64,000 nucleotides of DNA from a virus (Duplodnaviria; Caudoviricetes). Location of the stretch: positions 5,093 through 69,092 of IMG/VR virus record IMGVR_UViG_3300021431_000119. One strand, given 5' to 3'. This document shows positions 2,446 to 52,546 of the stretch, piece by piece. The notes beneath the pieces are model-generated. The model did not search any database, was not told where the DNA came from, and saw only the letters and a list, made by a program, of their open reading frames with translations. Every line of letters begins with the position of its first letter. The stretch's first letter is position 1. The position numbers and the translations under genes are program-made.

Positions 2446-3573
2446 TTACTCCATTGAGACGGCGACGGCGAGCAGGTCGTCCATGTCCGTGGACTGGTAG
2501 TGGTCGCGAGTGAAGGCGTAGTTCGTGTGACCCATCAGGCCTGCCTTCGCTTTGTCGCTGCCCTCTGCGGCCTTCAACTTGTCGCTGTAGGTGTGCCTGG
2601 CACAGTACGGAACCTTGCCTTCCGCAATGCCAAGACGGGCCATCATGGGCTTGAAAACGCTTTCCCGGAAGTACGCATCCGACATTTGGCTGAAGCCGAT
2701 GAGGATGTCCTTTCCCTTCTTCCAGACATAACGCGGGAAAAGCAGGTCTGTTCCGGGAACCCAGAGCCGGGAACGAACAATGTCGAGTATTTGCGGAGGA
2801 ATGACCACGATCCTGTCCCTGCCCGCTTCGGTTTTGCTTCCGTTGACCAGAACCTCAATGCCGTCAATGATCTTGTAGTGCTCTTTCCGCAAGGACAGGA
2901 ACTCGCCAGGACGGAAGCCAAGATAGCATAAACAGACCACATATGAAGCGTACCGCTCCCTTGGTATGGCGTTCACGATGACGGCCAGTTCTTTTTCTGT
3001 GATCGGCTCCCGCTGGATCGTCGCATGCTTTCCAACAAACAGGTGACCCGTGACGTCTTTGTCAAGGATGTTCTTGTCCAGCGCGTAGGCCCAGAGCAGC
3101 CCGGCTACCACCTTCATGTTTTCATGGGTGCGCTTCCCGGCCTTACAGGCGTCCATGCAGGATTGAAGGTCGGCTGCTGTGATGAGGTCAATGTACTTCG
3201 TGTGGAGCGATGAGAAGTGCTTATATGCAGAAAGATAATTGACCATCGTGGACGCACCGACACGGGGAGAATAGTACGGTTCCCATTCATCGTAAAGATT
3301 CTGGAGCGTGTACCGGGATGGGCGCTTTTTCTCTTTTTTCGCGCTCAGGAAAAGCGTGGCGCAGTAATTGATGGCTTCCTTCTTTGTAGCGAAACCGTCC
3401 TTTGTGCGCCAGTCCGGGATCTTGTGGGTGCCGTCACGAGAGAGCTTCCACCCTACAATGACGCGGGCCTGCCAGTACTTTCCGCGCAGGACAGCCGTGC
3501 CGGTTCCGTTTGCTCTGGTGCGGGACTTTCTGGCTTTCTTTTCCTCACTCATACTCCACATACCCTTCATCAA
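2446..3573 (-). CDS. int: Tyrosine recombinase (phage integrase)
   Basis: GFRPGE (R), CARHTY (HxxR-like), MGHTNY (H, Y) catalytic motifs; adjacent to attP. Confidence 0.93.
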   Translation of the reverse strand: MMKGMWSMSEEKKARKSRTRANGTGTAVLRGKYWQARVIVGWKLSRDGTHKIPDWRTKDGFATKKEAINYCATLFLSAKKEKKRPSRYTLQNLYDEWEPYYSPRVGASTMVNYLSAYKHFSSLHTKYIDLITAADLQSCMDACKAGKRTHENMKVVAGLLWAYALDKNILDKDVTGHLFVGKHATIQREPITEKELAVIVNAIPRERYASYVVCLCYLGFRPGEFLSLRKEHYKIIDGIEVLVNGSKTEAGRDRIVVIPPQILDIVRSRLWVPGTDLLFPRYVWKKGKDILIGFSQMSDAYFRESVFKPMMARLGIAEGKVPYCARHTYSDKLKAAEGSDKAKAGLMGHTNYAFTRDHYQSTDMDDLLAVAVSME

Positions 3574-3742
3574 AGAGCTGGCCGGAGGTGATGTGCTTCA
3601 TCTCGTGACGGTAGGTCTTCCGCTGCTGCTCCTTCGACAGACGGGAGTTCAGGACAATGCATGGCTCGTAATCCACGCCGAGACAGCAGAAGCCGCGAAT
3701 CTTTTCCGGAAGGTCCTGAAGGATAACTGGGACTTCATTCAT
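3545..3742 (-). CDS. ImmA/IrrE-like metallopeptidase (antirepressor)
   Basis: HEMKH (HExxH) motif, between repressor and integrase. Confidence 0.8.
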   Translation of the reverse strand: MNEVPVILQDLPEKIRGFCCLGVDYEPCIVLNSRLSKEQQRKTYRHEMKHITSGQLFDEGYVEYE

Positions 3743-4100
3743 CTGGCATCCTTCCTTTGGCGATGTTTTTCAGAATGGCGTTGACCGGGCGCAGGTCATC
3801 AGGAGAAAGGGTCTTGACCACGTCGAAAAGCGTACGGTACTCCTGATCCTGATGCATCAGATCAATGATGGTGTACGACAACTCTGCATCGCCTGGTTCT
3901 TCGTCCGACATCAGGTAACTGACAGGGACATTATAGAAATCCGCGAGGAGTTTCAGGTTCTTCCGGGACGGCGTTCGAATGCCGAGCTCGTATTGTCCGG
4001 CCGTGGTTTGGGCGATTTTTCCGCCGAGCGCGTCGGACAGCTCCTTCTGGGTCAGGCCCCTTGATTTTCTCAGGTTGTACAAGGCTTTTCCGATGGACAT
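3735..4100 (-). CDS. CI-like XRE-family repressor
   Basis: LRKSRGLTQKELSDAL...YELGIRTPS HTH; divergent from the cro-like gene. Confidence 0.9.
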   Translation of the reverse strand: MSIGKALYNLRKSRGLTQKELSDALGGKIAQTTAGQYELGIRTPSRKNLKLLADFYNVPVSYLMSDEEPGDAELSYTIIDLMHQDQEYRTLFDVVKTLSPDDLRPVNAILKNIAKGRMPDE

Positions 4101-4132: not shown

Positions 4133-4239
4133 AACGCGTTCTGCATTTATAATAACTCAAATATGACGAAAAATCAACTATTTTTTAACTGATTCTTAAC
4201 AGAAAAGGTATTGAAAATAATGCAAAATGCATATATAAT
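4133..4239. promoter_or_regulatory. Lysis-lysogeny switch: rightward sigma-A promoter with 15-bp palindromic operators
   Basis: TTGAAA 4211-4216, 17 bp, TATAAT 4234-4239; AAYGCR-N3-TGCATW-type sites at 4133-4147 and 4219-4233. Confidence 0.75.
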
Positions 4240-4273: not shown

Positions 4274-4486
4274 ATGCAGCGATACGACGCGGTGGAAGTC
4301 GGAAGACGGCTGAGGGAAATGCGAGGGATCCGGACGCGCATCGGCGTGTCAAAGGAGACCGGAATCGGCCTGTCCGCCTTGCAGGGATATGAGCAGGGAC
4401 GGCGAACGCCCGACCCGGATACGATGATCATCCTTGCGAACTACTACAACACCAGCGTCCAGCATCTTTTTTTTGACCAGTGGTAA
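4274..4486 (+). CDS. Cro-like XRE HTH protein
   Basis: HTH with YEQGRRTPD motif; first rightward gene. Confidence 0.85.
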   Translation: MQRYDAVEVGRRLREMRGIRTRIGVSKETGIGLSALQGYEQGRRTPDPDTMIILANYYNTSVQHLFFDQW

Positions 4487-4528: not shown

Positions 4529-5029
4529 ATGGCAGATACGAAGACGCTGTACAAGATGATGCGGGCGATGGAGACAGCTGAACGAGGGAAGCAGCTTCTG
4601 GAAGCTACGCGAGACGACCTGGAGGATATCACGGGGGACATCGGGGACGCGATGTGCGAGATGCTGTACGGGGAACCGACAGACCAGAACGTCACCGATT
4701 TCCTGAAGGTGGCGCACACGGACAAATCGACCATGTGGAAGGTGGCCCAACTTCTGCGACAGGCAAAAAAGGCGAAGCTTCCTGCCCCGAAGTTTCTGAC
4801 GGACGCGGAGAAAGCCACGGCGCACATTGGGTACGAATTCATCGAAAAGCCGAGCCGGACAAGCCCGGACGGGCACGAGGCCGAGCGCACCATCGAGCGG
4901 CTGCGGCAGACGCTGGAGGCGCGGGAGAAGGAACTGAGTGAATGCGCTGACCAGCTTTGCCAGAAGTGCGAAAGGTACACGTGCAACGAGTGCAGGTGGG
5001 CGGAAACGAGAAAGGGGATCTTCGAGTGA
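4529..5029 (+). CDS. Phage hypothetical protein
   Basis: RBS GGAGG; C-terminal Cys cluster. Confidence 0.7.
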   Translation: MADTKTLYKMMRAMETAERGKQLLEATRDDLEDITGDIGDAMCEMLYGEPTDQNVTDFLKVAHTDKSTMWKVAQLLRQAKKAKLPAPKFLTDAEKATAHIGYEFIEKPSRTSPDGHEAERTIERLRQTLEAREKELSECADQLCQKCERYTCNECRWAETRKGIFE

Positions 5030-5271
5030 CGCTGGAGCAGATGAGAAAGCTGGACCGGGAACGGATCACCGTGAAGGAAGCCGCCGAAATTCTCGGGTGC
5101 AGTCCTCAGCGGCTCCGGGACGGGCTGGACATCGACGAGGAGCGGCCCGTGGACATGCGGCGGTACCTGTTTCCACACTGCAAGGTTGGGAACCGGCACT
5201 GCATCATGCGGGAAGGGTTCCTGCGGTGGGTGGATGGGACGATGCTGACGCCAGATCTGAAGGCGGAATGA
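5026..5271 (+). CDS. Excisionase-like HTH DNA-binding protein
   Basis: GTG at 5026 overlaps upstream stop; ITVKEAAEILGCSPQRLR HTH. Confidence 0.7.
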   Translation: MTLEQMRKLDRERITVKEAAEILGCSPQRLRDGLDIDEERPVDMRRYLFPHCKVGNRHCIMREGFLRWVDGTMLTPDLKAE

Positions 5272-5273
5272 CA

Positions 5274-5333
5274 GGGCAGGCGAGGCGAGTTATGGCGTGG
5301 CTGGGCGTGTCGGGTCATGGCGTGGCATGGAAC
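5274..5333 (+). ncRNA. GGC-NN pentamer array (candidate VIPR-type guide RNA)
   Basis: GGGca GGCga GGCga GTTat GGCgt GGCtg GGCgt GTCgg GTCat GGCgt GGCat GGAac. Confidence 0.65.
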
Positions 5334-5479
5334 ACACTGGAAAGGAGGGGTGCGGATTGTGGGTAAAAGAAAAGAGCCTGTAAGCGAGGGCAACCGCTTC
5401 AGGCTCAACACCACGGGGTGGTGATGTAAAAGTACGAGAGTATTGTAAAACAAACGGATCAAAAAGTCAAGGAGGAACC

Positions 5480-5974
5480 ATGGTACAACTGAAAGCAATG
5501 TGGGAACCCGGATGGAGCGGTTTCTTTAAGAACAAGGACCCGCAGGCGATTGCGGATGAGATTTACTCCATCAGCGATGAGCCCACAAGTCAGCAGATTG
5601 TTGACAAGGCGAGAGACGAGAACACTGAGTTGCACGACCTTTTTGAGTGGCGGGATGATGTTGCGGCTGAACAGTGGCGGAAGGAACAGGCAAACAACAT
5701 TCTCCGCAAGCTGAAGGTCACCATCATCCCGGACGAACGGCCTGCGCCGGGCACGATGACCAGCATTCCCGTGACGCCCATAACCGCGAGGATGTTCTAC
5801 GGGGATCCTGAGAAGACCAGCGGGTTTGTCAGCGTGATGAAGGTCATGAACAACGAAGACACCTACAACGCGCTGCTGAAGCGGGCCAAGGATGAGCTGC
5901 TGTCCTACGAGCATAAGTACAGCATGCTGACTGAACTGAAGCCGGTATTCCAGGCGATCCACGATATTCTGTAA
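5480..5974 (+). CDS. Uncharacterised phage protein between the two pentamer-array loci (possible accessory factor)
   Basis: RBS AAGGAGG; 164 aa; LHDLFEWRDDVAAEQWR motif. Confidence 0.8.
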   Translation: MVQLKAMWEPGWSGFFKNKDPQAIADEIYSISDEPTSQQIVDKARDENTELHDLFEWRDDVAAEQWRKEQANNILRKLKVTIIPDERPAPGTMTSIPVTPITARMFYGDPEKTSGFVSVMKVMNNEDTYNALLKRAKDELLSYEHKYSMLTELKPVFQAIHDIL

Positions 5975-5981
5975 AGGTTCA

Positions 5982-6662
5982 GCGGCGTTGGTACGGTCGA
6001 GGGCTTGCCCCTCGGAGAATATGTCAAAACACCCAAGAAACGCGAAGGACTGTGCATGACCATACGCGACATTATAAAACACCGCAATACAGAACAGCGC
6101 AAGCCTTCCACCGTGCCAACGCAGCAGAGGAAAATACAGGACCATAAAACACACTAATACACAGCACCTTGTAAACTGAATAATCCCTGCCGATTCCAGC
6201 GAGGGCGCAGCTCTCGAAAAGGACATATCAGGAATGGACAAGACGAGTCCAGGACAGCAGACTACAAATCAGCGAAATTCAGGACTGCACACTACAGAAC
6301 AATATCTTTTTCTGAAGTTTGCGCTTTCGCTGGAGTCGGCAGGGGAAACTCCATCGGTTCTGGCGGGAGCGTGGATAACGCGTCCCAGCACTTGTCATAA
6401 CATCACAAGACAGGACTGTACTCAACAGCACAAGACATTAATTCACGTTCCTACCAGAGCCGATGGAGCACGAACAAACAACTATTTCCGCCAGCCTTGT
6501 TGAGGGCGTGGATAACACGGCCTCAGCTTATGTTCAAACGCCATAGAATAAAATGGTACACGACAGGTCATGACAAAAAAGCGTCAGCACCTATCATGAC
6601 AGATCACGACAAATTAGCACAGAACACAACAATGCAATTCACGTTCTCAACCAGGCTGGCGG
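5982..6662 (+). ncRNA. Four tandem long RNA stems, each enclosing ACA-NN pentamer arrays (candidate guide-RNA precursor)
   Basis: Stems 5982-6008/6099-6125, 6185-6210/6319-6344, 6349-6375/6442-6468, 6488-6512/6638-6662; 13 G:U pairs on the + strand; period-5 loops. Confidence 0.8.
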
Positions 6663-6692
6663 GTCATACGAAGAAAGGAAGAAATACGAACT

Positions 6693-7358
6693 ATGAAAAA
6701 GAACGCTAATGAAGTCGTCATCGTCACTCCTGAAAGCAAGATTCAGCATGCCACCATCCGCATCGTCGGGGACAGTGACCTGATCCTGAACAAGATGAAC
6801 GCACGGAACACGCGGATGCTGATGGCTCCGGACCGGAAGGCAGTACGTGAACAGCCGAACCTGTGGGAGGACCTGATTACCTCCATCCACTGGCAGGATC
6901 CACTGCCCATGAAGGATACCTACACGGAAAGCGACGAAGCCATGATGGCGCGGCTGCTGAACGAGAACAAGCCCTGCATCAAGGCGTTCGGGCTGAAGAA
7001 GAGCTTCGGGCAGACTGTGGTGCGGCTGGGGATTGACAAGTACTCCACGAGTTTCGACGCCAGCCTGAACATTGCCGGGAACGGACTGGTTCCGGTGCAG
7101 TTTTCCGGGTGGGCGTACCGGGAGCAGTTGATGAGCCCGAAGCGTGGAGCACCCATCGTTGTGGCGCTGAACCACTTCATGGGATGGGAAGCCACCTTCA
7201 CGATTGACTACCTGGACGGCGTGTACAGCCGTGACAAGCTGGTCGAAATTATCAACATGGCTGGGTTTTCCATTGGCATCGGAAGCGGCCGGACGAGCGG
7301 ATACGGGCGGTACCACGTTGCGGACGTGATCGCGACGGGGAAGGTGAGCGAGGAATGA
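6693..7358 (+). CDS. Stand-alone RAMP/Cas7-like protein (Vipr-like)
   Basis: N-terminal beta strand TIRIVGDSDLI and C-terminal Gly-rich loop AGFSIGIGSGRTSGYGRYHV; RBS AAAGGAAG; no other cas genes seen. Confidence 0.75.
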   Translation: MKKNANEVVIVTPESKIQHATIRIVGDSDLILNKMNARNTRMLMAPDRKAVREQPNLWEDLITSIHWQDPLPMKDTYTESDEAMMARLLNENKPCIKAFGLKKSFGQTVVRLGIDKYSTSFDASLNIAGNGLVPVQFSGWAYREQLMSPKRGAPIVVALNHFMGWEATFTIDYLDGVYSRDKLVEIINMAGFSIGIGSGRTSGYGRYHVADVIATGKVSEE

Positions 7359-7663
7359 GCCGGAACTACGTGAAGTTGTGCGGTATGTTCCGCAGGTTCA
7401 AGGGCGCCATGTACGTCGATACGCCGGAGCATGTGGCGGACGATTATCTGGTGAACATGGGGTTCCCGATTAAGTTCGGGACGGACATGGCGAAGGAAGG
7501 ATGCCCGTACGTGATCTGCTTCGCTTATTTCAAGAAGGAGCATCTGTCAGACTTTGAGCTGGCGATGAAACGGATGGTGCGGGAGATGGAAGTGCTGGGG
7601 CACGATGACTACGGCGAGCAGTGCGCGGAACTTTTCCGGGAGCTGGGCGTCGAAGCGGAATGA
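7355..7663 (+). CDS. Phage hypothetical protein
   Basis: ATGA coupling to the RAMP gene. Confidence 0.75.
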   Translation: MSRNYVKLCGMFRRFKGAMYVDTPEHVADDYLVNMGFPIKFGTDMAKEGCPYVICFAYFKKEHLSDFELAMKRMVREMEVLGHDDYGEQCAELFRELGVEAE

Positions 7664-7860
7664 CATTTCCAGGGGACGGTACGCGGGAACAGGAAGACCG
7701 GGCATGACGGCTTATCACTCTCCTTGACGGCCGCGTGGCTCTGGACACGTCCACCGGGCGGGAGTTTTTACTGGTGGTTTTCCTCCCGAAGCCGGAATGG
7801 ACGGGGCGTGAACAGCGAAGCCGCGCCGTACCGCCCCCGATTTTTACAGCGGGGAGATAC

Positions 7861-32599: not shown

Positions 32600-33165
32600 T
32601 TTTTGTGGCCTTTTCAATAATTGACAAGTTTTTTTCTCGCTTTATCCGTTTTTGCAGGGGATAAAGATACAAGGGAAAAAGGCTTGTCAATGCATGGTTA
32701 CATGCTTTAATGTACTTTGTTTTGGTATCCTGTCACGATACCATGTTATTTTATTTAGTTGTCAATGTTCGGCTCTCGCTTTATTCGCCTTTTGTGGCCT
32801 TGCTTGCGATACAAAGTGTAGCAAGGTTCTTTCGTGTCCTTTGATCATCCCCTTTCCTTTTGTCGGTCTCACTTGCTTTTCCTGTATTGTCAACAGGTTT
32901 TTCTGTTGACAATGAAAGAATAACAGACTTTTCTGTTTTTGTCAACAGGTTTTTGCGAAAAAATATTGACAAGTTTTTAACAATGTTTTCTTTCTATTAT
33001 ATGCTACGTTTTGGCTATGATATAGCCATATCCCATGGCTTGTTAGCAAATGCTAACACCCCTGGGGGATGCCAGCGACCAGGCGGCCCCACCCTGCTCA
33101 CCCCCGTCAGCACCGAAAAAACAAAAAAAGCTATTGACAAACCAGAAAAAACTGTATATAATACA
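32600..33165. promoter_or_regulatory. AT-rich divergent promoter region with many TTGACA/TGTCAA hexamers
   Basis: TTGACA 33134-33139, 17 bp, TATAAT 33157-33162; TTGTCAACAGGTTTTT at 32887 and 32939. Confidence 0.7.
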
Positions 33166-52321: not shown

Positions 52322-52546
52322 ATGAACAAGTTAGCGGAGATCGCGGAGCAGGTGGAAGAGGTATATGAGCGGTTGCAGGGACTGGACATGCCTATGAAGC
52401 CAGACAACGCGGAGATTATGTGCGGCGTATTCGGGCTTCTGGCGTGCGCTTATCGGGCACTGACGGCGAAGGAGGAACCCGAGACGGAGGAGGCGCCCGA
52501 GGCGAAGGAGGAGACCGAGACGGAGGAGGTGAAACCGGATGTTTGA
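52322..52546 (+). CDS. Small hypothetical protein
   Basis: RBS AAGGAGG. Confidence 0.6.
   Translation: MNKLAEIAEQVEEVYERLQGLDMPMKPDNAEIMCGVFGLLACAYRALTAKEEPETEEAPEAKEETETEEVKPDV

What the first reader, a model, noticed from the sequence alone, without database searches (positions are those of the whole stretch)
5274..7358. Candidate RNA-guided system: stand-alone RAMP/Cas7-like protein plus period-5 repeat RNAs (VIPR-like), no CRISPR
Seen: the 221-aa ORF 6693-7358 has an N-terminal strand TIRIVGDSDLI and a C-terminal Gly-rich loop GIGSGRTSGYGRY. The 0.7 kb upstream holds arrays of 5-nt units (constant triplet plus variable dinucleotide), and a further array sits at 5274-5333. No cas1/2/3/5, direct repeats or spacers are visible. 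Established: this Gly-loop marks RAMP proteins, and Cas7 polymerises along guide RNA with a fixed period. From memory, not checked: phage VIPR systems pair a RAMP protein with GGY-NN repeat RNAs whose NN positions specify a gapped dsDNA target. Inference: this is such a system, placed at the start of the early operon and probably aimed at competing phages or promoters.
Basis: partly seen in the sequence, partly recalled or inferred. Interest (0 to 1): 0.95.

Follow-up and report, generated by a model that had tools for sequence, protein, structure and literature searches.

The report
Phage VIPR system with AHA-NN guides
A gut prophage carries a real VIPR system, the CRISPR-like RNA-guided DNA silencer first described in 2026, whose guides use A-H-A rather than G-G-Y as the fixed letters. 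Two of its guides spell conserved motifs of the DNA polymerase and primase genes of rival phages.

Summary

- **Protein.** ORF 6693-7358 has a Cas7/Csm3-type RAMP fold (pLDDT 94.9, Z 12.1). Its family profile hits the solved SUSP1 Vipr protein at E 4e-12.
- **Guide cassettes.** Four cassettes (M1-M4, 5988-6663) lie upstream on the + strand. Each is an array of (A/T)CA-NN pentamers closed by a 20-28 bp stem.
- **Family.** The same layout, plus a conserved 164-aa partner gene (5480-5974), recurs in about 100 related phage loci. The unbiased repeat unit there is A-H-A-N-N.
- **Code.** The published 1-nt-skip code holds in this family. 30 of 313 guides match rival-phage DNA at 88% or better with skip 1 (13 of them at 95% or better), against 0-1 with skip 0 or 2 and 2 for shuffled guides.
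- **Targets.** M2 matches a family A DNA polymerase motif 34/34. M1 matches a phage primase motif 30/34. In both, NN falls on codon positions 1-2 of the sense strand. Targets of M3 and M4 were not found.
- **A0.** The array at 5274-5333 is a canonical GGY-NN tract that does not fit this Vipr's dialect. It may be a solo guide for a rival's Vipr. This is unproven.
- **Novelty.** This is a variant of a kind published in 2026. Non-canonical pentamers are already in print, and this scan has met similar AYA-NN loci on other DNA.

The parts
4211..4239 (+). Promoter-like site of the rightward early operon (11 of 12 consensus matches), upstream of the cro-like gene. No + strand terminator-like site follows until 7748, so the guides and vipr are probably co-transcribed.
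   Evidence: gene order; same synteny in relatives
5274..5333 (+). A0: 12 units of G-(G/T)-Y-NN, the canonical VIPR dialect. It has no closing stem. Two hairpins follow at 5374-5406 and 5409-5423. The closest relatives lack this array.
   Evidence: relatives
5480..5974 (+). 164-aa conserved partner gene, a candidate Vipr-accessory protein. It matches phrog_15946 and no Pfam, NCBIfam or PADLOC family.
   Evidence: Homologue on the same strand in 99 of 103 vipr loci, median gap to vipr 476 nt. AF2 pLDDT 86.9. Only weak winged-helix-like matches, Z up to 5.1. Family scans.
5988..6119 (+). Guide cassette M1. Stem arms are 5988-6007 and 6100-6119. The 17-unit guide at 6019-6103 decodes to a phage DNA primase motif.
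   Evidence: Fold z -2.95. NN is conserved while the spacer triplets vary among three relatives. 114 metagenome hits, window guide 30/34. Target gene is phrog_2597, PriCT_2 + AAA_25.
6124..6168 (+). M1b: nine pentamer units outside any closing stem, conserved in the two closest relatives. Target unknown.
   Evidence: no hit above shuffles
6185..6344 (+). Guide cassette M2. A closing stem of about 28 bp or more encloses 17 decoded units at 6218-6303, one of them a 6-nt unit at 6243-6248. The units spell GYGGSVGALKAMGALDM of a family A DNA polymerase.
   Evidence: Fold z -8.28. At least 117 IMG/VR hits. 34/34 in three contigs against a shuffle maximum of 25. Target gene is PF00476/phrog_17.
6349..6468 (+). 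Guide cassette M3. A 28-bp closing stem encloses 8-9 units at 6395-6439. Target not found.
   Evidence: Fold z -8.29; stem; scan without hits
6487..6663 (+). Guide cassette M4. A closing stem of about 27 bp encloses 19 units at 6543-6638, with one extra base at 6583. Target not found.
   Evidence: Fold z -7.40; scans
6693..7358 (+). vipr: a 221-aa stand-alone RAMP protein of the Vipr family.

Best explanation
This is a VIPR (Viral Interference Programmable Repeat) system in the early lytic operon of a temperate gut phage.

**How it most likely works.**
- The operon transcript carries four guide cassettes.
- In each cassette a long stem closes a loop of A-H-A-NN pentamers.
- Inferred: Vipr protomers polymerise along the loop, one per pentamer, hide the constant triplet and present the NN pairs.
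- Inferred: the filament binds double-stranded DNA whose sequence reads NN-x-NN-x, and blocks transcription of that gene.

**Targets.** The guides are written in the first two letters of consecutive codons of conserved enzyme motifs, so silent mutations cannot escape them.
- M2 is aimed at a family A DNA polymerase gene of rival phages or prophages.
- M1 is aimed at a primase-helicase gene of such elements.
- The likely effect is to stop a co-resident or co-infecting rival from replicating while this phage grows.

**What is shown and what is inferred.**
- Shown here: homology and fold of the protein, the array anatomy, the RNA strand, the code and two target gene families.
- Inferred from the SUSP1 work: filament formation, DNA binding rather than cleavage, and silencing.
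- Inferred: the closing stems are processing or loading signals (for example an RNase III site). The 164-aa partner is taken to be an accessory nucleic-acid-binding protein.
For: **Protein.**
- The family has 2034 members with no curated family.
- The family profile hits SUSP1 Vipr (PDB 36pp_D) at E 4e-12.
- The AF2 model has pLDDT 94.9.
- The top 22 structural matches are all CRISPR RAMPs: Cmr4-like at Z 12.1, Csm3 at 11.7 and 10.5. Foldseek gives probability 1.0.

**Association with arrays.**
- Arrays lie directly upstream of the gene in 15 of 17 genome loci and in most of 80 viral loci.
- 385 of 390 A-rich pentamer runs are co-oriented with vipr.

**RNA strand.** In 151 closing stems there are 296 G.U pairs against 88 A.C pairs on the gene strand. 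The one inverted cassette shows the opposite bias.

**Repeat unit.** The unbiased logo is A 0.81, C/T/A 0.51/0.27/0.19, A 0.93, then two near-uniform positions.

**Code.**
- Only skip 1 gives matches: 30 guides at 88% or better, against 0-1 with skip 0 or 2 and 2 with shuffled guides.
- One relative's guide spells the G-loop codons of rival vipr genes.

**Targets.**
- M2 matches 34/34 and M1 matches 30/34.
- Both guides are identical to the sense strand, so they can pair with template DNA but not with the mRNA.
- The phage has no PolA and no self-target.

**Guide turnover.** Stems are conserved and loops diverge among relatives with 83-86% identical Vipr.
Against: - No expression or binding data exist for this locus.
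- Targets were found for only 2 of the 4 cassettes.
- The constant triplet is not GGY, and there is no 3' tail with a pseudoknot as in the characterised type II system.
- Silencing rather than cleavage is carried over from SUSP1.
- The partner protein has no clear fold match.
- The structural comparison could not include the Vipr structure itself, because it is not in the fold library.
Confidence: 0.87

Rival explanations
1. A0 (5274-5333) is a heterotypic solo guide. It is a GGY-dialect vrRNA that this phage's own Vipr cannot read. A rival element's GGY-reading Vipr loads it, and is thereby redirected or diluted. Solo vrRNAs of satellites and vipr-less phages behave in this way in print.
For: - A0 fits GGY: G at position 1 in 12 of 12 units and Y at position 3 in 10 of 12. 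It does not fit the family logo on either strand.
- It sits where a relative, L102, carries a guide cassette. The two closest relatives have no intergenic space there.
- Family members whose G-loop has an acidic residue plus Trp, like the GVGDWR of SUSP1, carry G-containing arrays. L104 has GGY, L368 has (G/T)GT and L371 has G(T/G)T.
- L104 comes from an Oscillospiraceae genome and has the same partner gene.
- Solo vrRNAs are documented in 10.64898/2026.10.15.759431.
Against: - No convincing target was found. The exact scan was empty and the 8-unit scan was at chance level.
- One hit lies antisense to a dnaE gene, with units 1-10 perfect. About 0.3 such hits are expected by chance, and the match is not wobble-aligned.
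- No GGY-reading Vipr was found in the rival genomes examined.
- The tail sequence was not found elsewhere.
Confidence: 0.3
2. A0 is a relic or chance G-rich tract, or it has a function unrelated to VIPR. Possibilities are a leftover cassette from an ancestor with a GGY-reading Vipr, or part of the regulatory region around a minus-strand small RNA.
For: - It is unique among about 100 loci of this clade.
- It has no target.
- Several units are degenerate: GTT, GTC, GGA and GGG.
- A minus-strand promoter-like site, a hairpin and a U-run lie just downstream of it.
Against: - Its period-5 score ties for the highest in 64 kb.
- 12 consecutive in-register units are unlikely by chance, even at 54% GC.
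Confidence: 0.4
3. The pentamer tracts act as DNA, for example as iterons, an origin or protein-binding repeats, and the RAMP protein has an unrelated RNA role.
For: - The tracts lie in a phage early region, where origins and operator repeats are common.
- No transcript data are available.
Against: - The G.U over A.C bias of 296 to 88 in the closing stems is strand-specific and flips with cassette orientation.
- NN positions are near-uniform while the flanks are fixed.
- The NN strings decode in one register and with one skip length only to conserved protein motifs of other phages.
Confidence: 0.03
4. It is a degenerate or minimal CRISPR-Cas remnant of type III or IV.
For: The best fold matches are type III Cas7 proteins.
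Against: - There is no CRISPR-like repeat array, no Cas1 and no second RAMP.
- By sequence profile the protein groups with Vipr.
- The guides have a 5-nt period, not a repeat-spacer structure.
Confidence: 0.02

Closest known systems
Type II VIPR of Escherichia phage SUSP1 and the Pseudomonas fulva prophage (Vipr + Vap1 + vrRNAs; bioRxiv 10.64898/2026.04.26.720920, .720927; PDB 36pp)
   Same: - A stand-alone RAMP protein homologous by profile.
- It is phage-encoded and has no CRISPR array.
- The guides are tandem pentamers with a constant triplet and variable NN.
- The 1-nt-skip code applies, with the skipped base on the codon wobble position.
- The targets lie in rival mobile elements.
   Different: - The constant triplet is A-H-A, not G-G-Y.
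- The G-loop has Ser-Gly where SUSP1 has the G-contacting Asp177 and Trp178, plus a four-residue insertion.
- Each guide is the loop of a 20-28 bp closing stem, instead of being followed by a pseudoknotted 3' tail.
- The partner gene is an unrelated-looking 164-aa protein placed upstream.
- The targets are replication enzymes.
Non-canonical VIPR arrays reported from a genomic language model survey (bioRxiv 10.64898/2026.10.21.760802: GAC/NN, CAC/NN, WGT/NN, TGH/NN beside Vipr-like folds)
   Same: These are period-5 arrays with a non-GGY fixed triplet next to a Vipr-like protein. TGH/NN and WGT/NN are what DCA-NN and ACW-NN look like when read on the opposite strand, so this family is probably among those clusters.
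   Different: The text I could read gives no strand, no closing stems, no code test and no targets. Whether this exact family is included could not be checked, because the figures and tables are not held.
Solo vrRNAs of satellites and vipr-less phages (bioRxiv 10.64898/2026.10.15.759431)
   Same: A0 is a GGY-type array in a genome that has no cognate GGY-reading Vipr.
   Different: Here the carrier does have a Vipr, but one of another dialect. No target or decoy site has been identified for A0.
Class 1 CRISPR Cas7 backbone proteins (Csm3, Cmr4, Csf2)
   Same: They share the RRM core, G-loop and thumb fold (Z 9-12), and they polymerise along a guide with a fixed period.
   Different: The period is 5 nt rather than 6. 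There is no repeat-spacer array, no Cas5, Cas6 or Cas10 partner and no adaptation genes.

Membership tests
VIPR system | Vipr protein: a stand-alone RAMP (RRM core, G-loop, thumb) homologous to described Viprs | tested here: met
   The profile of 66 family members hits PDB 36pp_D 'SUSP1 Vipr protein' at E 4e-12 over residues 144-216. The RAMP fold scores Z 12.1, rmsd 3.6 over 160 residues to 6s6b_I. Foldseek gives probability 1.0 to Csm3/Cmr4.
VIPR system | Tandem pentamer RNA genes (constant triplet plus hypervariable NN) in the intergenic DNA next to vipr | tested here: met
   Four arrays lie at 5988-6663. The same is seen in about 100 loci. NN positions are near-uniform. Loops diverge among close relatives while stems stay the same.
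VIPR system | GGY as the constant triplet (canonical consensus) | tested here: not met
   The unbiased logo is A-H-A. The window's arrays read (A/T)CA. Only A0 is GGY-like. The papers allow 'a related consensus', so this does not exclude membership of the wider class.
VIPR system | Gapped recognition: NN pairs read a target with one skipped base | tested here: met
   This was tested by computation only. 30 of 313 guides match at 88% or better with skip 1, against 1 with skip 0, 0 with skip 2 and 2 for shuffled guides. M2 matches 34/34 and M1 30/34 with skip 1 only.
VIPR system | No CRISPR array and no cas operon | tested here: met
VIPR system | Vipr-vrRNA ribonucleoprotein forms and represses transcription of the bound DNA | not testable with these tools
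   No expression data could be obtained.
VIPR type II (SUSP1 clade) | Invariant structured 3' tail (pseudoknot) after each repeat tract; Vap1 partner | tested here: not met
   The cassettes are closed by long stems instead. The partner has no detectable similarity to anything named. Vap1 itself could not be compared, because no sequence was on hand.
One of VIPR types I, III-VII | Position in the Vipr phylogeny, the array architecture and the vap gene of that type | not testable with these tools
   The type definitions are in figures and data files that are not held.
CRISPR-Cas class 1 | Repeat-spacer array plus Cas5, Cas6, a large subunit or adaptation genes | tested here: not met

The most novel reading that the evidence does not exclude
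The phage speaks two guide dialects. Its own Vipr reads the A-H-A guides, which it uses to silence rivals' replication genes. It also carries one G-G-Y guide (A0) that only a rival's Vipr can load. A0 would then hijack or misdirect that rival's weapon, as cross-dialect interference between VIPR systems. Linked to this, two G-loop residues would set which constant triplet a Vipr reads: Asp/Glu-Trp for G-containing triplets, Ser-Gly plus an insertion for A-H-A.
Probability: 0.2. Interest if true: 0.8.

Novelty: new variant of a known kind. Interest (0 to 1): 0.6.

Why it matters
VIPR was described only in 2026 and has been characterised in one clade, type II, with GGY guides. This locus and about 100 relatives add five things.

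- **A large gut-phage clade uses a different constant triplet.** The clade has 2034 protein clusters. The triplet goes with a changed G-loop, which gives a direct hypothesis for how Vipr reads its scaffold. It could also yield orthogonal guide/protein pairs for tools.
- **The guide packaging is different.** The guide is a loop closed by a long stem, with a competing 5' mini-hairpin. This points to another maturation route.
- **The 1-nt-skip, wobble-blind code carries over to this clade.** It also tolerates a 6-nt unit.
- **Replication enzymes are natural targets.** The targets found are conserved motifs of a PolA and a primase. The main texts of the VIPR papers do not mention this target class.
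- **One genome carries both dialects.**

All of this can be tested with ordinary laboratory strains and reporters.

Tried and rejected
**Sequence and family searches**
- Rfam found nothing in 4800-7800. In particular there was no hammerhead ribozyme between cassettes.
- Pfam, NCBIfam and PADLOC gave no family for Vipr, for the partner or for the 102-aa downstream ORF.
- A single-sequence search of PDB sequences found nothing. Only the family profile reached SUSP1 Vipr.
- Isolated phage genomes (INPHARED) have no homologue of the protein and none of the A0 region.

**ORFs and strand reading**
- The 102-aa ORF 7355-7663 overlaps the vipr stop codon, but none of 103 loci has a homologue. It was rejected as a system component.
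- Reading A0 on the minus strand as (C/A)C(A/C/T)-NN was rejected. C at position 1 occurs in 2% of family units and A at position 3 in 93%, against 6 of 11 in A0. No closing stem was found on either strand.

**Target searches without result**
- A0 units 2-11, exact match.
- A0 units 3-10 gave 17 hits, which is chance level. Six of them come from one unrelated protein family, and the flanking units do not match.
- M4b, 11 units and 9 units. The single hit does not extend.
- The last 9 units of M1, and M3.
- No window guide other than M2 or M1 matched the rival genomes or loci held.
- The idea that all guides converge on one rival phage was rejected. Only M2 hits G305, G306 and G309.

**Other searches**
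- The A0 tail hairpin gave no exact match in the metagenome collection.
- Vipr homologues were found in only 3 of the 301 Oscillospiraceae genomes searched, one of them a marginal hit at E 1.6e-4.
- The genome holding the dnaE hit shows no DNA similarity to this phage.
Full report
**Context.** The window is bases 5093-69092 of a 69-kb virus record that CheckV rates complete. The left end has the layout of a temperate phage.
- An integrase lies at 2446-3573 on the minus strand, followed by an ImmA-like ORF and a cI-like repressor at 3735-4100, also on the minus strand.
- A promoter-like site follows at 4211-4239 (11 of 12 consensus matches).
- A rightward operon starts with a cro-like gene at 4274.
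- No + strand terminator-like site occurs before 7748. Everything discussed here therefore probably lies on the early lytic transcript.
- Relatives with 77-86% identical protein share this synteny.

**The observation.** A period-5 information score puts all twelve best 60-nt windows of the 64-kb window inside 5266-5296 and 6241-6586, at 2.55-3.19 against a mean of 0.81 and sd of 0.33. Periods 3, 4, 6 and 7 peak elsewhere. Read in register, two kinds of array appear.
- 5274-5333 holds 12 units of G-(G/T)-Y-NN. I call this array A0.
- The 0.7 kb before the gene holds arrays of (A/T)CA-NN.

**The protein is a Vipr.**
- It has 2034 relatives in the clustered protein collection and no curated family in Pfam, NCBIfam or PADLOC. 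PHROGs gives one weak hit to a family of unknown function.
- The G-loop is invariant in its clade.
- A profile of 66 diverse members hits one solved protein, PDB 36pp_D 'SUSP1 Vipr protein', at E 4e-12.
- The AF2 model is confident, with pLDDT 94.9 and pTM 0.87.
- Foldseek and the wide structural search return only CRISPR RAMPs at the top: Cmr4-like 6s6b_I at Z 12.1, Csm3 at 11.7 and 10.5, then type III-E, VII, IV and I Cas7.
- The record has no CRISPR-like array, no Cas1 and no second RAMP.

**Anatomy of the guides.** Each of the four arrays is the loop of a long hairpin.

| Cassette | Coordinates | Folding z-score |
|---|---|---|
| M1 | 5988-6119 | -2.95 |
| M2 | 6185-6344 | -8.28 |
| M3 | 6349-6468 | -8.29 |
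| M4 | 6487-6663 | -7.40 |

- The arm sequences differ between cassettes but stay complementary.
- The inner end of the 5' arm carries a conserved GAGGGC-like element.
- In all four cassettes that element can instead pair with the first loop bases to form a mini-hairpin of -9.8 to -20 kcal/mol.

**The layout is a family trait.**
- Period-5 arrays lie directly upstream of the homologue in 15 of 17 genome loci and in most of 80 viral loci.
- 385 of 390 A-rich pentamer runs are co-oriented with vipr.
- 151 of 200 unique arrays have a closing stem, commonly 25-29 bp.

**Which strand is the RNA?**
- In those stems G.T pairs outnumber A.C pairs 296 to 88 on the gene strand. Stem composition alone predicts about 1.3 to 1.
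- The one cassette that is inverted relative to its gene shows the opposite bias.
- The RNA is therefore the gene strand, and the unit in RNA sense is A-H-A-N-N. An identity-blind logo over 125 loops gives A 0.81, C/T/A 0.51/0.27/0.19, A 0.93, and then two near-uniform positions.

**The code and the targets.**
- *Code test in a relative.* I applied the published test of replacing the constant triplet by 0-3 wildcards. One relative's guide read with one skipped base matches the codons of the G-loop of rival vipr genes: 18/20 in two loci and 16/20 in more than twenty others. NN falls on codon positions 1-2 of the sense strand.
Two comparable nine-unit patterns returned none. All hits lie in one motif.
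  - Read with one 6-nt unit at 6243-6248, the whole M2 array spells 17 consecutive codons of GYGGSVGALKAMGALDM.
  - The match is 34/34 in three contigs and typically 32/34 elsewhere.
  - The usual mismatch is a serine written AGY in the guide but TCN in most targets.
  - Shuffled guides reach at most 25, and skip 0 or 2 give 21-22.
  - The gene is a family A DNA polymerase, PF00476 and phrog_17.
- *M1.* Its NN are conserved among the window and its two closest relatives, while the 'constant' triplets drift.
  - A consensus pattern of 22 specified bases gave 114 metagenome hits, many labelled human gut, all in the motif CKPEAGAWIRFNP.
  - The window's guide matches 30/34.
  - The gene is a phage primase, phrog_2597 with PriCT_2 and AAA_25 domains, next to an exonuclease and a Sak4-like annealing protein.
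- *Family-wide test.* 30 of 313 guides match the polymerase-phage DNA at 88% or better with skip 1, and 13 at 95% or better. Skip 0 gives 1, skip 2 gives 0, and shuffled guides give 2. The closest relative's M2 hits the adjoining stretch of the same polymerase motif.
- *No self-targeting.* The window's phage has no PolA and no self-target. The three rival genomes read in full have no Vipr and no arrays, and two of them have similar GC.
- *DNA, not mRNA.* M1 and M2 are identical to the sense strand. They can pair with template DNA but not with the mRNA, which fits DNA recognition.
- *Not found.* M3, M4 and M1b gave nothing.

**The partner gene.**
- The 164-aa ORF at 5480-5974 has a homologue on the same strand in 99 of 103 loci, with a median gap of 476 nt to vipr. 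The arrays sit in that gap.
- Its model is fair (pLDDT 86.9). It has no Foldseek match and only weak winged-helix-type matches of Z 3.7-5.1. A nucleic-acid-binding role is therefore only a suggestion.
- The 102-aa ORF after vipr is not conserved.

**What sets the dialect?**
- In SUSP1 Vipr, Asp177 and Trp178 of the G-loop contact G1 and G2 of GGY (10.64898/2026.04.26.720927).
- In the profile alignment these positions are Ser198 and Gly199 in this protein, followed by a four-residue insertion.
- Wider family members keep Glu/Asp-Trp. Of the four such members whose DNA could be read, three have G-containing arrays: GGY in L104, (G/T)GT in L368 and G(T/G)T in L371. The fourth (two near-identical loci, L369 and L370) showed no array at my threshold.
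- The sample is small, so this is an inference.

**A0.**
- It is a good GGY tract but a poor A-H-A tract on either strand. It has no closing stem.
- The two closest relatives lack it and have no intergenic space there. Another relative has an A-H-A cassette at that site.
- No target was found.
- One hit in 401 Oscillospirales genomes lies antisense to dnaE, with the first ten units perfect. About 0.3 hits with three mismatches are expected by chance, the match is not wobble-aligned, and that genome shows no similarity to this phage.
- Solo vrRNAs are in print, and a GGY-reading family member with the same partner gene exists in an Oscillospiraceae genome. A heterotypic solo guide is therefore possible. 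I give it about 0.3.

**Comparison with what is known.**
- The class, the 1-nt-skip rule, wobble-blind targeting of catalytic motifs and solo guides are published.
- Non-canonical triplets beside Vipr-like folds are published too. TGH/NN and WGT/NN are probably this family read on the other strand.
- In the text available to me I found no closing stems and no DNA polymerase or primase targets. I also found no genome described as carrying both dialects. Figures and tables are not held, so these points may still be in print.
- This scan has already reported AYA-NN VIPR loci, polymerase targets and the competing hairpin on other DNA.

**Verdict.** This is a genuine VIPR system and a variant of a known kind. 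It now has two decoded natural targets and a testable hypothesis for scaffold specificity.

Noticed in passing
window 5363-5470, minus strand: A promoter-like site lies at 5470-5442 (10 of 12 consensus matches). It is followed by two hairpins (5426-5406 and 5406-5374) and a U-run. Together these could make an antisense small RNA of roughly 70 nt, just upstream of the partner gene's ribosome-binding site and next to A0.
   Followed up: partly
window 6243-6248 (M2) and 6583 (M4): One unit in M2 is 6 nt long. Taking its last two bases as NN keeps the guide in step with the target codons (Val GT, mean 1.81 of 2 matched over 117 hits). M4 has a similar extra base, so the filament seems to tolerate a 4-nt spacer.
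   Followed up: partly
window 5994-6018, 6197-6221, 6361-6390, 6498-6528: In every cassette the inner 5' arm (the GAGGGC-like element) can fold with the first loop bases into a mini-hairpin of -9.8 to -20 kcal/mol. This hairpin competes with the long closing stem.
   Followed up: partly
L104:1330-2620 (an Oscillospiraceae genome): A family member has a GVGEWW G-loop. About 480 nt of canonical GGY-NN arrays follow it downstream, and then a homologue of the 164-aa partner gene. This is the opposite gene order and the other dialect.
   Followed up: partly
L253:1501-1535 (genome G364): A0 read with one skipped base matches a site antisense to a dnaE (Pol III alpha, PHP domain) gene. Units 1-10 are perfect and the last two are mismatched. 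The hit is statistically borderline.
   Followed up: partly
L045:2853-2902: A relative's guide spells the G-loop codons (YAGFGLGIG) of other phages' vipr genes, so this looks like an anti-VIPR guide.
   Followed up: partly
window 32876-32902 and 32928-32954: Two copies of a 27-nt direct repeat lie 52 nt apart (85% identity), each containing a short palindrome. This could be an operator or a promoter duplication.
   Followed up: no
window 52465-52529: Three copies of an 18-nt-period G/A-rich repeat, probably a coding Glu/Gly/Ala-rich repeat.
   Followed up: no
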